The translations under genes and the position numbers were made by a program. Positions 2,434 to 4,664 of a DNA stretch of 10,482 bases are shown here, piece after piece; positions within the stretch are counted from its first letter, which is position 1, and the number at the start of each line of letters is the position of its first letter. The DNA lies in IMG/VR virus record IMGVR_UViG_2534681701_000011. One strand, given 5' to 3'. Under the pieces are notes generated by a model. The model was not told where the DNA came from and made no database searches. It saw only the letters and a list, made by a program, of their open reading frames with translations. The stretch is from a virus (Duplodnaviria > Heunggongvirae > Uroviricota > Caudoviricetes).

Positions 2434-2752
2434 AGTTGATACAGGACGTAAGTTGCTGTCCGCACAAGGGGCAACGCTGTTAAGAACAGCAATGCTGGAT
2501 TATTATAACCAGGACACTACGGGAACCTCGGGGATAGTCGGCATGGGATTCAACAATGAAGATTCCATTACAGACCTTCGTGAGGGCAGCTTTAAAATGC
2601 CGGACGGGACAACATTCAGCGATCCTGTCGTGGCAATGTCAGACAATGGTATGCAGGCTACTATTCTGACCTCTATCAGAAGCGGGTATGCGAAGGGTAT
2701 CACTGTCAGACCCCGTAGCATTGCACTTAATTACATTGTGAGGGCAGTTTAA
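2240..2752 (+). CDS. Alternative tail-fibre C-terminal cassette (Sv'-like), currently silent; would be fused to the constant part of the fibre gene after inversion
   Basis: No proper start; the frame opens inside the inverted repeat. The first ~65 aa (GEGSALPVGVPVPWPTATPPAGWLKCDGRAFTKEQYPVLARVYPTLRLPDLRGEFIRGWDDGRK) are identical to the corresponding part of the minus-strand fibre gene and then diverge. Ends …SIALNYIVRAV, like the expressed copy (…NIAFNYIVRAA). Confidence 0.75.
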   Translation: MGEGSALPVGVPVPWPTATPPAGWLKCDGRAFTKEQYPVLARVYPTLRLPDLRGEFIRGWDDGRKVDTGRKLLSAQGATLLRTAMLDYYNQDTTGTSGIVGMGFNNEDSITDLREGSFKMPDGTTFSDPVVAMSDNGMQATILTSIRSGYAKGITVRPRSIALNYIVRAV

Positions 2753-3366
2753 TGAGTAACACTGCAGTTCTGGATGAAAACGGTATCGCCACTGTAGCGG
2801 GCGATATCACTGTATATCACTATGACGAGGAAACCCGGGAATACACCTCATCCTCTGTGGAGTATCTCGCCCTTGGGGTGGGTACTCCGGCACATTCGTG
2901 CGCCGATGCACCGCCGGAGGCAATTTCGGGTTACGTGGTTTGCCGGACTGCCACGCTGAACGGGTGGGAGCATGTGCCTGATCACCGCGGCGAGACGGTA
3001 TACAGCACGGAGAACGGTAACCCTGTTCTGATTACCCAACCGGGTGATTACCCGGCGGACACCACCACAAAACAGCCAGCCACGCCATGGGATACCTGGA
3101 ACGGTGAGGCGTGGGTAACCGATACTGAACGGCAGCGAGCCGCAGAACTGGAGGTTGCCAGACAGCAACGCCAGCAACGGGTGAAACAGGCGATGGCGTC
3201 AGTCGATCTTATCAACCTCAAACTGCGTGCTGGTCGCAGTCTGACACCAGAAGAAACGGCAAAACTGAACGCCGTGCTGGATTATATCGACGAGCTGAAC
3301 GCACTGGATATCAGCACGGCACCTGAAATCAGCTGGCCGGAAGCGCCACTGGCACTTGCCAGTTGA
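2752..3366 (+). CDS. Tail-fibre assembly chaperone (lambda Tfa / P2 gpG / Mu U family)
   Basis: 204 aa; motifs WEHVPDHRGETVY, WNGEAWVTDTE and STAPEISWP match the Tfa family as I recall it (e.g. e14 TfaE). Start overlaps the Sv' stop (TAATG). Confidence 0.85.
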   Translation: MSNTAVLDENGIATVAGDITVYHYDEETREYTSSSVEYLALGVGTPAHSCADAPPEAISGYVVCRTATLNGWEHVPDHRGETVYSTENGNPVLITQPGDYPADTTTKQPATPWDTWNGEAWVTDTERQRAAELEVARQQRQQRVKQAMASVDLINLKLRAGRSLTPEETAKLNAVLDYIDELNALDISTAPEISWPEAPLALAS

Positions 3367-3372
3367 ACGGTA

Positions 3373-4664
3373 TCACGCCGCCCTCACGATATAGTTAAAC
3401 GCGATATTGCGGGGGCGGGTTATGTTAAAGAATGCTCCGTTTAATTCGGCTTTTGCGCGACTGTTTGTTCCACCCAGAATTACGTACCACAAATAATCGC
3501 TACGGTAATTCCCCGCAAACACCTTATCGCCGCCATAGTCAATATTATTTCCGTTACTCATGTACGAGATATCAAGCGAAGAATCGTTATCGTCATGACC
3601 GCCGACCAGTGTACCTTTCTGCCATGAAAGCAACTTACGCCCCTCGTCAATCTTGCGCCCGTCGTCCCATCCACGGATAAACTCACCGCGTAAATCGGGA
3701 AGACGGAGGGTCGGGTAGACTCTGGCCAGAACAGGATATTGTTCTTTTGTAAAGGCGCGCCCGTCGCACTTTAACCAGCCTGCTGGCGGTGTGGCGGTGG
3801 GCCATGGAACCGGTACACCAACAGGCAATGCAGAGCCTTCCCCCAAACCAAGGTAATTGAGGACATCTTTTATACTGCCCTTAGCGATAATAGCGCGACC
3901 AATAGCTGTAAGGGTTGCCAGCGCTGCGCGGTCTGCTCCGGTAAAATAAGGCAACCGATCTGCTGCAGTGGCAAGTCCTGCCAGAGCAGTGAGCGTGGCA
4001 TCTGCCGGTTGTTTTCCGTTTGCCAGATCGTATGCAGCCTTGACCGCTTTCGGTGTGGCGGCCAGTATTTCAGACGTGCTGTTGATGGCACTGCTCAGTT
4101 GTACGGTGCCTTTTGCCGTCAGCGAGGCAGCAGGCACTCCCGTTATCTGACTCCACGGGTGAGTGTGGCTGACGGGCGCCTTGCCGGCTGCAAGGTCGTA
4201 TGCAGCCTTGACCGCCTTCGGCGTGGCAGCCTCAGTTTCTGATTGACTGTCCGTGGCGCTGCTCAGTTGTACGGTGCCTTTTGCCGTCAGTGAAGCCGCA
4301 GGCACTCCCGTTATCTGACTCCACGGGTGAGTGTGGCTGGCAGGCGCCTTGCCGGCTGCCAGGTCGTATGCAGCCTTGACCGCTTTTGGTGTGGCGGCCA
4401 GCGTTTCAGAGGTGCTGTTGGTGGCACTGCTCAGTTGGGTGAACCCCTTAGCTGTCAGTGTCGCGTCCGGGTGGTTACGGGAACGTACGTGTTCAGCCAG
4501 TGACTGTGCGGCTTCCTCCGTTTTCTTCTTCAGCCATTTCGTCCTGTTTGCCAGTTGCCGGGGGCTCGATTTGATATCCCGTCTGCACCACCCAGAACCG
4601 GATCTGATGTCTCCAGTTGATAGATATTTTCTTCCCACTTTTCTGTTTCATTCAGGTTTCCCAT
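3373..4664 (-). CDS. Tail-fibre protein (P2 gpH / lambda Stf-like), apparently interrupted by a 1-nt frameshift at a C5 tract near the 5' end
   Basis: Body (RNHPDATLTAKGFTQLSSATNSTSETLAATPKAVKAAYDLA…GKQPADATLTALAGLATAADRLPYFTG…) recalls P2 gpH; C-terminus NIAFNYIVRAA recalls lambda Stf. An ATG at 4664 overlaps the gpI stop (TGATTATG) with GGGAG upstream, and opens a 44-codon frame (MGNLNETEKWEENIYQLETSDPVLGGADGISNRAPGNWQTGRNG*). The long frame continues in +1 from the run at 4560-4564. Confidence 0.8.
3653..3851. repeat. Right arm of the perfect 199 bp inverted repeat
   Basis: Reverse complement of 3653-3851 is identical to 2235-2433. Confidence 0.9.
3838..3863. other. Right 26 bp crossover site (gix/cix/hix-like)
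   Basis: TTCCCCCAAACC-AA-GGTAATTGAGGA; compare the recalled hixL TTCTTGAAAACC-AA-GGTTTTTGATAA. Sits at the outer edge of the right inverted repeat, inside the fibre coding sequence. Confidence 0.6.
4012..4455 (-). repeat. In-frame tandem repeats in the tail-fibre gene: 168 bp (56 aa) unit, about 2.6 copies
   Basis: Protein repeat TAKG(F/T)xQLSSAxxSxSExxAATPKAVKAAYDLAAGKAPxSHTHPWSQITGVPAASL occurs twice in full and once in part. At DNA level GGCACTCCCG starts at 4133 and 4301, and CTGCTCAGTTG at 4091, 4259 and 4427 (period 168). Confidence 0.85.

What the first reader, a model, noticed from the sequence alone, without database searches (positions are those of the whole stretch)
2434..3652. 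Asymmetric cargo: a single tail-fibre assembly gene serves only one orientation
Classical invertible segments (Mu, P1, e14) carry two fibre-tip/chaperone pairs arranged tail to tail. Here the unique region holds Sv' plus tfa on the plus strand and only a 92-codon fibre tip on the minus strand, with 7 bp between the convergent stops (3366 and 3373). The currently expressed fibre therefore has no co-oriented chaperone, while the alternative form would be made with one. Either the current tip folds without a dedicated Tfa, the one Tfa works in trans, or the second tfa was lost. Both tips end in NYIVRA(A/V), the lambda Stf-type C-terminus.
Basis: partly seen in the sequence, partly recalled or inferred. 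Interest (0 to 1): 0.6.

Follow-up and report, generated by a model that had tools for sequence, protein, structure and literature searches.

The report
Tail-fibre tip switch with one chaperone
This is an ordinary, already described kind of phage DNA switch that swaps the tip of the tail fibre, and having only one fibre-assembly gene is the normal design of its family, although nobody seems to have explained how tips made without that gene fold.

Summary
A Pin-like serine invertase gene (1596-2168) sits next to a 1.6-kb segment. The segment is bounded by two inverted 26-bp crossover sites (2223-2248, 3838-3863). It holds tip B plus tfa on one strand and tip C alone on the other, with 6 nt between the convergent stops. 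No second tfa exists in any frame.

The reading as an anomaly or a local loss is not supported. This is the two-site minimal form of the multi-cassette arrays I recall as the Min system of p15B. The prophage is a close relative of 'Phi2' of E. coli ST131 EC958, whose inversion was seen by PacBio. In 22 of 159 surveyed loci, arrays of 1-9 Collar-type tips surround a tfa gene (exactly one in 21 of them). The tfa/tip junction is colinear in about 600 E. coli genomes.

Every inversion flips the central tfa, so the tip that converges on it can never be co-transcribed with it. TfaE-type chaperones follow 17 unrelated tip families, so they are generalists. Orphan-position tips are intact and under purifying selection. 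How they fold without co-oriented Tfa is unresolved; I favour Tfa-independent assembly. The architecture is firm, the mechanism is inferred. Interest is low to moderate.

The parts
1596..2168 (-). Serine DNA invertase gene (190 aa), Din/Pin family
   Evidence: Resolvase PF00239 E 6e-51 plus HTH_7. 76% identical to PinE of e14. 84% identical to the invertase of a 7-tip array on a P1-like plasmid. Same protein accession (WP_000904922.1) annotated in L001-L003 and on plasmid L164.
2223..2248 (+). Left 26-bp crossover site GAGAGATAAACG-TT-GGTTTGGGGGAA
   Evidence: Identical to 'Phi2_3prime' in Table 3 of PMC4134206. Pattern search finds exactly two sites in the window, inverted, against 0 expected. 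The same site precedes every cassette in related arrays.
2232..2460 (.). Left arm of the 229-nt inverted repeat; encodes the conserved Collar domain of the silent tip
   Evidence: Collar domain
2237..2752 (+).
   Evidence: ORF and translation; Collar. All 12 members of this tip type lie directly upstream of a tfa.
2752..3366 (+). Single tail fibre assembly gene, TfaE type, 204 aa
   Evidence: Caudo_TAP E 3.5e-28. 59% identical to e14 TfaE. 33% identical to lambda Tfa, E 8e-30. Start overlaps the tip B stop (TAATG); a GAGG lies 8-9 nt upstream, inside the VRA codons.
3373..3625 (-). Variable part of tip 'C', now fused to the fibre gene; converges on tfa with 6 nt between the stops
   Evidence: All 8 members of this tip type are in the tfa-convergent position. 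A 71%-identical relative in L087 lies directly upstream of a tfa.
3626..3854 (.). Right arm of the inverted repeat; Collar domain of the expressed tip
3838..3863 (-). Right 26-bp crossover site TCCTCAATTACC-TT-GGTTTGGGGGAA (read on the minus strand)
   Evidence: The outer half matches 'Phi2_5prime' of PMC4134206.
3855..4664 (-). Constant part of the tail fibre gene, with three 168-nt Phage_fiber_2 repeats; ATG at 4664-4662
4560..4564 (.). G5 run where relatives have G6: frameshift in the fibre gene
   Evidence: alignment with L001 and L002. ORFs 4530-4670 and 3373-4638 lie in different frames.

Best explanation
The window holds the right end of a BcepMu-like transposable prophage. Its tail fibre gene ends inside a two-site DNA inversion switch.

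A Pin-like serine invertase recombines two inverted 26-bp sites. This joins the constant fibre part either to tip C (present state) or to tip B followed by tfa. That much is shown or directly read from sequence.

The single tfa is not a defect of this copy. It is the conserved core, tip B - tfa - tip C, of a family of multi-cassette arrays of the kind I recall as Min of p15B. In these arrays further tip cassettes, each preceded by a crossover site, are stacked on either side. All sites on one side of the core point one way and all on the other side point the other way. Every inversion therefore includes and flips the core. Tip B always has tfa behind it and tip C never does. Outer tips have it in half of the isomers.

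The chaperone is a TfaE-type generalist. It probably recognises the conserved collar and C-terminal strand shared by all cassettes. That would explain why one gene suffices where all tips belong to one family, whereas classical segments pair two different tip families with two different Tfa proteins. This part is inferred from comparative data.

For the state seen here, I think it most likely that these short tips can trimerise without co-transcribed Tfa. Each tip is a collar plus an insert of about 80 residues, without the His-rich needle of T4 gp37 or lambda Stf. On this view Tfa is needed only by, or merely improves, some tips. This last step is inference and is the weakest.
For: Anatomy. 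The crossover sites match those published for EC958 Phi2, where both orientations were seen in PacBio reads. Inverted isomers of the same two-tip module exist in databases: L084 and L086 (tip 96-99% identical) and plasmid L164.

Family design: of 159 surveyed loci, 22 have a tfa converging on a Collar tip, with 1-9 tips. Twenty-one of these hold exactly one tfa; L101 has a duplicated core with two. Another 63 have the classical convergent tfa pair. Every cassette start carries the site ...AAACG-TT-GGTTTRGGRGAA. The junction is colinear in 197 genomes over the full query and in about 400 more up to the variable part. State enumeration gives B always, C never and outer tips half the time; six sites give 240 isomers.

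Generalist Tfa: one Tfa cluster (at least 90% identical, 97.5% to e14 TfaE) lies directly behind 17 tip families that share less than 50% identity in the variable part. In 58 of 65 classical segments only one tip is of the Collar type, and the other tip has a shorter Tfa alike only in its C-terminal ~76 residues.

Function without cis Tfa: all 29 tfa-convergent tips counted are complete by profile and stop codon. Convergent-position copies of one tip type show pN/pS 0.05 at pS 0.17. A Rahnella P2-like J-I-H-sheath-tube cluster has a tip 76% identical to the ST131 tip C and no Tfa-like sequence within 12 kb. Twenty of 159 loci have no tfa at all. There is no second tfa in the whole 37-kb prophage. 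From established knowledge, T4 gp12, a collar-type fibre, needs gp57A but not gp38.
Against: The same tip types (at least 90% identical in the variable part) that are orphan cassettes in arrays have a tfa directly behind them in classical segments. Overall, 150 of 262 tips do.

The last Arg codon of nearly all tips is AGG or AGA, forming a Shine-Dalgarno-like motif for a downstream tfa. This suggests descent from tip-tfa pairs.

From established knowledge, T4 gp37 needs gp38, and lambda Tfa can replace gp38. The closest characterised relatives of these tips are therefore chaperone-dependent.

All arrays keep a tfa, so it is not dispensable for everything. Purifying selection on orphan-position copies could partly reflect exchange with copies that function elsewhere.

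The monomer structure model was uninformative for the variable part. I could not read the p15B papers, so the equation with Min rests on memory, on plasmid arrays and on the count of 240 isomers.
Confidence: 0.5

Rival explanations
1. All tips need Tfa, and tfa is expressed in both orientations. Expression would come from a weak or activator-dependent promoter inside the segment or at its invertase-proximal border, so its orientation relative to the fibre operon does not matter.
For: tfa has its own ribosome-binding motif (GAGG 8-9 nt before the ATG). It could therefore be translated from any transcript that covers it. The Tfa type is a generalist, following 17 tip families. Identical tip types have a dedicated tfa elsewhere. 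Every array keeps a tfa. Late promoters of Mu-like phages depend on Mor/C activators and would escape a sigma-70 scan; a Mor family gene is annotated in the prophage.
Against: No sigma-70-like promoter was found anywhere in 1500-4800 (0 found, 3.1 expected by chance). The spacer between invertase and first cassette differs between array lineages and shows no shared rightward promoter by eye. If orientation did not matter, there would be no reason for tfa to sit translationally coupled behind one particular tip.
Confidence: 0.22
2. All tips need Tfa. Isomers with tfa opposed to the fibre operon simply give fibre-less or poorly infective particles. This would be a tolerated cost of a bet-hedging array that grew by accretion of cassettes.
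For: T4 gp37 and lambda Stf depend on gp38/Tfa (established knowledge). There is no second tfa and no visible promoter. In assemblies both states occur, 13 opposed against 6 co-oriented. This is expected if the prophage state is not under selection.
Against: The convergent tip could then never work, yet all 29 convergent tips counted are complete. It is also diverse (five tip types). It is under strong purifying selection in that position (pN/pS 0.05). Half of all isomers would be wasted, yet none of the M-type arrays in the sample has moved tfa outside the invertible DNA.
Confidence: 0.12
3. Tfa is borrowed in trans from tfa genes of other prophages in the same cell.
For: TfaE-type chaperones are promiscuous. 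From established knowledge, lambda Tfa replaces T4 gp38. E. coli genomes hold several such loci: a median of 4 matching places per genome for the 3.2-kb query, and e14 carries tfaE and tfaP.
Against: Late genes of resident prophages are normally silent. A phage cannot count on them in a new host. The same design occurs in genera with other prophage contents.
Confidence: 0.08
4. A second tfa that once followed tip C was lost recently in this lineage, leaving a decaying switch.
For: Classical Mu/P1/e14 segments have two pairs; e14 was checked. The prophage in this window looks damaged, with a frameshifted fibre gene and IS1 nearby. Four classical segments with two Collar tips and two full tfa genes exist and could be ancestors of the core.
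Against: The junction is the same in about 600 E. coli genomes. It recurs in cores with other tip types on P1-like plasmids and in viral contigs. There is no tfa remnant in any frame. Only 6 nt separate the stops.
Confidence: 0.03

Closest known systems
Prophage Phi2 of E. coli ST131 strain EC958 (Forde et al. 2014, PMC4134206)
   Same: The left crossover site (GAGAGATAAACGTTGGTTTGGGGGAA) is identical and the outer half of the right site is the same. The imperfect inverted repeat has the same length class (227 bp, 96%). The fibre has Phage_fiber_2 repeats plus a Collar domain. Both orientations were seen in PacBio reads. ST131-type copies (L001, L168) are about 98% identical to the window outside the cassettes.
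   Different: The EC958-type segment is 2067 bp with three tips (an extra cassette next to the invertase) and another tip C type. The paper describes the alleles as mirror images, each with a cognate 'minor tail fibre gene', and does not mention that there is only one.
Min multiple-inversion system of plasmid p15B (Sandmeier, Iida, Arber 1990-1992); recalled from memory, papers not readable here
   Same: It has a Din-family invertase and several crossover sites. A constant fibre gene is fused to alternative 3' ends homologous to e14. My state model gives 240 isomers for six sites, the number I recall from that work. P1-like plasmids of 92-97 kb carry the very same module (L164) and 7-tip arrays with one tfa (L165).
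   Different: The window has only two sites and two tips, so two isomers. It lies in a BcepMu-like chromosomal prophage, not a P1-like plasmid. Whether p15B itself has one tfa I could not verify.
P segment / PinE of the e14 element of E. coli K-12
   Same: The invertase is 76% identical. StfE is a Collar tip ending NIAFNYIVRAA. TfaE is 59% identical to the window Tfa. The site lies at the same distance from the invertase start (71 nt).
   Different: e14 has two tip-chaperone pairs tail to tail (stfP-tfaP, tfaE-stfE). The two tips belong to different families, and TfaP is a shorter, different Tfa.
G segment / Gin of Mu and C segment / Cin of P1
   Same: The logic is the same: a serine invertase, inverted 26-bp sites, a constant fibre part outside and variable parts inside the segment.
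   Different: Mu and P1 carry S-U and S'-U' pairs (as described in PMC4406740). Their tips are not of the Collar/NYIVRA type. Here there is one chaperone gene and both tips are of one family.
T4 gp37 / lambda Stf distal fibre tips with gp38 / Tfa
   Same: Collar domain and C-terminal ..NIAFNYIVR.A strand. Tfa is homologous to lambda Tfa.
   Different: The His-rich needle of gp37 and Stf is replaced by an insert of about 80 residues without HxH repeats. In that respect the tips resemble T4 gp12, which does not use gp38 (established knowledge).

Membership tests
Din-family (Gin/Cin/Pin/Min/Hin) invertase switch of a phage tail fibre gene | Small serine recombinase with resolvase catalytic domain and C-terminal HTH, next to the segment | tested here: met
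   PF00239 E 6e-51 and PF02796 E 1e-12; 76% identical to PinE.
Din-family (Gin/Cin/Pin/Min/Hin) invertase switch of a phage tail fibre gene | Two 26-bp crossover sites in inverted orientation with the same central dinucleotide | tested here: met
   Sites at 2223-2248 and 3838-3863, both with central TT in cassette orientation. They match published Phi2 sites.
Din-family (Gin/Cin/Pin/Min/Hin) invertase switch of a phage tail fibre gene | The segment actually inverts | tested here: met
   Both isomers of the same module are on record (window/L002/L003 against L084/L086/L164). PacBio evidence exists for the three-tip relative. Not shown for this very copy.
Din-family (Gin/Cin/Pin/Min/Hin) invertase switch of a phage tail fibre gene | Fis-dependent recombinational enhancer inside the 5' part of the invertase gene | not tested
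   I did not search for Fis sites.
Classical symmetric segment (Mu G, P1 C, e14 P) | Two tip-chaperone pairs arranged tail to tail | tested here: not met
   One tfa only; e14 layout checked.
Min-type multi-cassette array | More than two crossover sites, giving overlapping invertible segments | tested here: not met
   Exactly two sites in the window. Close relatives have three (L001, L164) and other arrays up to nine. The window is the two-site limit of the design.
Min-type multi-cassette array | Cassettes all of one tip family, each starting at a crossover site, around a central tip-tfa-tip core with one tfa | tested here: met
Caudo_TAP tail fibre assembly proteins (lambda Tfa, Mu U, P2 G, e14 TfaE) | Pfam PF02413 above the gathering score; position directly behind a fibre gene | tested here: met
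   98.8 bits against a cut-off of 22.1; TAATG overlap with tip B.
Caudo_TAP tail fibre assembly proteins (lambda Tfa, Mu U, P2 G, e14 TfaE) | Required for folding of the cognate fibre | not testable with these tools
   Needs expression experiments. No multimer structure prediction is available.
T4 gp37 / lambda Stf type distal tip | Collar domain plus C-terminal NYIVR.A strand | tested here: met
T4 gp37 / lambda Stf type distal tip | Long His-rich (HxH) needle between collar and C-terminal strand | tested here: not met
   Variable inserts are 59-143 residues (class medians 76-85). Both window tips lack HxH repeats, in contrast to lambda Stf.

The most novel reading that the evidence does not exclude
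The central tfa may be a second layer of the switch. Every inversion flips it, so each outer tip can be made with or without Tfa, tip B only with it and tip C only without it. As I recall it, Tfa of Mu stays bound to the fibre tip (North et al. 2019, listed among the references of PMC9881135; I did not read that paper here). If Tfa stayed on the finished fibre here too, or changed which tips fold productively, an array of n tips would encode up to 2n-2 adsorption phenotypes. The two-tip module in this window would then toggle between a 'capped' and a 'naked' fibre, rather than merely between two tips.
Probability: 0.1. Interest if true: 0.7.

Novelty: already known. Interest (0 to 1): 0.3.

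Why it matters
As a structure it matters little. The invertible segment, its crossover sites and its inversion are published for a close relative, and the module is present in hundreds of E. coli genomes and P1-like plasmids.

What the follow-up adds is a rule that I did not find stated in the accessible literature. In arrays of this design the one chaperone gene is flipped by every inversion. One tip therefore never has it, one always has it, and the rest have it half the time.

That makes a simple, testable question of general interest for phage host-range engineering: do short collar-type tips need a Tfa at all, and does one generalist Tfa serve many tips? Tips that need no chaperone, or one universal chaperone for many tips, would simplify the design of chimeric fibres and tailocins.

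Tried and rejected
1. Second tfa on the minus strand or in any frame. Pfam on the three minus-strand ORFs and a Tfa profile with filters off on six frames found none.

2. Own promoter for tfa. The sigma-70 scan of 1500-4800 found nothing. Inspection by eye of the spacers between invertase and first cassette in 26 variants showed no shared rightward promoter. This does not exclude activator-dependent promoters.

3. A class of intrinsically chaperone-free tips. This is rejected at the level of tip types, because the same type occurs in all three positions.

4. Selection test within the window's own tip types. Too little divergence (pS 0.00-0.013) to say anything. Only tip type 0, and the comparison with L087, were informative.

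5. Structure prediction of tip C with a 37-sequence alignment. The collar and the last strand are confident, but residues 60-154 have pLDDT below 50. No fold search was run. A prediction with Tfa is impossible because the tool folds single chains.

6. PDB sequence search with Tfa. No meaningful hit.

7. Reading the p15B Min papers and a review of serine invertases. Not held in the library.

8. The idea that the S. boydii B segment/pinB has this layout. Dropped, because I recall it as closely G-like; not tested.

9. A terminator-like hairpin on the minus strand at 3275-3256, 100 nt behind the tip C stop. The count of such hairpins is at chance level (4 found, 3.2 expected), so I make nothing of it.
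Full report
**What is there**

- A 190-aa serine recombinase gene lies at 1596-2168 on the minus strand. It has Resolvase and HTH_7 domains.
- It is followed by a 229-nt inverted repeat, 96% complementary, with arms at 2232-2460 and 3626-3854.
- Between the arms, on the plus strand, is the 3' part of a fibre gene ending at 2752. It has a Collar domain.
- A 204-aa Caudo_TAP gene (tfa, 2752-3366) follows. Its ATG overlaps the preceding stop (TAATG).
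- On the minus strand the long fibre ORF (three Phage_fiber_2 repeats, then Collar) runs into the segment and stops at 3373. That is 6 nt from the tfa stop.
- A pattern taken from the repeat ends finds exactly two sites in the window, in inverted orientation, where none is expected by chance.
- Written as 26-mers, the sites are GAGAGATAAACG-TT-GGTTTGGGGGAA (2223-2248) and, on the other strand, TCCTCAATTACC-TT-GGTTTGGGGGAA (3863-3838).

**No hidden second chaperone**

- The three minus-strand ORFs of 57-109 aa inside the segment give no Tfa-like Pfam hit.
- I built a Tfa profile from the window protein, e14 TfaE and TfaP, plus 224 relatives. Run with all filters off on the six frames of 2201-3900, it finds only the known gene.
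- The same holds for the whole window and for a complete 37-kb copy of the prophage in another strain.

**What the tips and the chaperone are**

- The expressed tip matches the C-terminal fragment of T4 gp37 (2XGF, E 1.3e-15) in the collar and in the last strand. More weakly it matches T4 gp12.
- Lambda Stf has the same collar and ends NIAFNYIVRLA.
- Unlike gp37 and Stf, the window tips have no His-rich needle. About 80 variable residues lie between collar and last strand.
- The Tfa is 33% identical to lambda Tfa (E 8e-30) and 59% identical to TfaE of e14.
- e14 StfE is a tip of the same family and has TfaE right behind it. The family as a whole is therefore not chaperone-free.

**It is a known element**

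- The 3.2-kb region matches 177 E. coli genomes over at least 80% of its length. It lies at different chromosomal places: next to aroA, in paaJ, next to a lom fragment. Here it lies in a RihA-like hydrolase gene.
- A complete copy encodes a DDE transposase, an ExeA-family protein, Gam and Mor.
- A related phage record is filed under Bcepmuvirus. The prophage is therefore a BcepMu-like transposable phage.
- The genome paper of ST131 strain EC958 describes this prophage type as Phi2. It reports a 2067-bp invertible segment, a 227-bp imperfect repeat, the same left crossover site, and PacBio contigs of both orientations (PMC4134206).
- That paper calls the alleles mirror images, each with a cognate 'minor tail fibre gene'. 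For Phi2 this is not accurate. The ST131 copy has three tips and one tfa.

**The single tfa is the family design**

I aligned five tips and fetched the best 80 relatives each from one-genome-per-species bacteria and from IMG/VR. I then annotated tips, tfa and invertase genes with my own profiles.

| Layout among the 159 loci | Loci |
|---|---|
| Classical convergent pair of tfa genes | 63 |
| One tip-tfa pair | 50 |
| No tfa at all | 20 |
| Contig fragments with cassettes only | 4 |
| A tfa converging on a Collar tip | 22 |

- In that last group, cassettes separated by 13 nt are stacked on either side of the core.
- The number of tips ranges from one or two up to nine (L097), eight (L100) and seven (L129).
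- There is exactly one tfa in 21 of the 22. L101 has a duplicated core.
- Every cassette start carries the site ...AAACG-TT-GGTTTRGGRGAA. Its left half includes the stop codon of the preceding tip.
- The very same module occurs on 92-97-kb plasmids with P1-type genes, with the same protein accessions for invertase and Tfa. One such plasmid has a seven-tip array with one tfa.
- A 451-nt probe across the tfa/tip junction is colinear in 197 genomes. In about 400 more it is colinear up to the point where another tip C type begins.
- A recent loss of a second tfa in this lineage is therefore not supported.

**Logic of the array**

- All sites left of the core point one way and all sites right of it point the other way.
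- Any permitted inversion therefore contains the core. After it, the pattern 'rightward block, core, leftward block' is restored.
- Enumerating all reachable states gives 2, 4, 48, 240 and 1440 isomers for 2, 3, 5, 6 and 7 sites. From memory, 240 is the number reported for the six sites of p15B Min.
- In every case the tip upstream of tfa is expressed only with tfa co-oriented. The tip converging on tfa is expressed only with tfa opposed. Each outer tip has equal numbers of both.
- In the two-site window, the present state is the only one in which tip C is made, and tfa then points the wrong way.
- Among 19 arrays where the fibre gene is on the contig, 13 have tfa opposed and 6 have it co-oriented.

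**Is the chaperone specific?**

- Clustering the variable parts shows that one tip type (at least 90% identical) can occupy any position. It can lie directly before a tfa, converge on a tfa, or be an outer cassette.
- Conversely, one Tfa cluster (at least 90% identical, 97.5% to e14 TfaE) lies directly behind 17 tip families that share less than 50% identity in the variable part.
- In 58 of 65 classical segments only one of the two tips is of the Collar type. The other tip has a shorter Tfa (median 146 aa) that resembles the first only over about 76 C-terminal residues.
- Only four segments have two Collar tips and two full-length tfa genes.
- The number of tfa genes thus follows the number of tip families, not the number of tips.
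- This fits a chaperone that reads the conserved collar and C-terminal strand. I infer this; it is not shown.

**Do orphan tips work?**

- All 29 tips counted in the convergent position are complete.
- For the one tip type with enough divergence, copies in that position have pS 0.17 and pN/pS 0.05.
- The window tip C and its 71%-identical relative in L087 give pN/pS 0.22.
- A Rahnella locus has an intact P2-like order J, I, fibre, sheath, tube. Its fibre tip is 76% identical to the ST131 tip C, and no Tfa-like sequence lies within 12 kb. A Pluralibacter locus is similar.
- Against this, most tips of the family (150 of 262) do have a tfa directly behind them.
- The last Arg codon of nearly all tips is AGG or AGA (about 244 of 262, against 21% at other Arg codons). 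This forms a ribosome-binding motif for a downstream gene, even in cassettes that have none.
- No sigma-70-like promoter is seen in 1500-4800.
- A monomer AlphaFold model was confident only for the collar and the last strand, so it does not help.

**Verdict**

The framing as an oddity is not.
- The window holds the two-site limit of a known family of tail-fibre tip shufflons, in a close relative of a published prophage.
- The one real open point is how fibres are assembled in the isomers where the single tfa is opposed to the fibre operon.
- I rate Tfa-independent assembly of these short tips as the most likely answer. Next come orientation-independent tfa expression, wasted isomers, and borrowing of Tfa from other prophages.
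- None of these can be settled without experiments.
- In this particular copy the question is partly moot. The fibre gene has a 1-nt deletion in a G6 run, so it is either a pseudogene or misread.

Noticed in passing
window 4560-4564: G5 run where two close relatives have G6. This puts the first ~34 codons of the tail fibre gene (ATG at 4664) out of frame with the rest. It is either a pseudogene or a homopolymer read error.
   Followed up: partly
window 1-1517: InsA and InsB ORFs of IS1 lie at about 1-745 (recognised from memory). They are followed by a RihA-like nucleoside hydrolase gene (749-1498, minus strand) lacking profile positions 1-48. The prophage end at 1517/1518 cuts it. In other strains the same prophage lies at aroA/ycaL, in paaJ or next to a lom fragment, as expected of a transposable phage.
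   Followed up: partly
window 1518-1561: The prophage end starts 5'-TG and carries GCGATAAATG twice (1529-1538 and 1552-1561). These are possibly transposase binding sites of the BcepMu-like right end.
   Followed up: no
window 2743-2745 and 3382-3384; all loci: The Arg of the conserved C-terminal ..IVRA is AGG or AGA in about 244 of 262 tips (AGG 197), against 21% AGR at other Arg codons of the same tips. GTGAGGGCA provides a Shine-Dalgarno-like GAGG 8-9 nt before the tfa start. The codon is kept in cassettes with no tfa behind them and is relaxed (AGG 5 of 21) in tips with nothing downstream.
   Followed up: partly
L164 (NZ_CP028585.2) 3635-7697; L165 (NZ_CP103764.1) 1938-8041: P1-like plasmids of 92-97 kb carry the same invertase and Tfa protein accessions as the chromosomal BcepMu-like prophage. 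The tip/tfa/invertase module therefore moves between unrelated temperate phages.
   Followed up: partly
L101 6001-9600: Two tip-tfa-tip cores of the same type lie back to back in one array. This is the only case with two tfa genes among the single-family arrays.
   Followed up: no
L074 about 4423-4509: A 29-residue remnant of a Tfa C-terminus lies just behind a Collar-tipped fibre gene in a Photorhabdus locus. This is a tfa that really was lost.
   Followed up: no
L049 2123-4000: Sodalis locus in which a Collar-tipped fibre converges on a tfa that belongs to a non-Collar tip next to the invertase. This is another one-chaperone segment, but with two tip families.
   Followed up: no
window 10166-10221 and 10427-10482: A 56-nt direct repeat (95%), 261 nt apart, inside the tape measure gene at the edge of the window.
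   Followed up: no
L001 5295-6581; protein table: Automatic annotation breaks intact fibre genes of this type into several 'partial' pseudogenes. It also names some silent tip cassettes 'integrase' or 'Fels-2 prophage Pin'.
   Followed up: no
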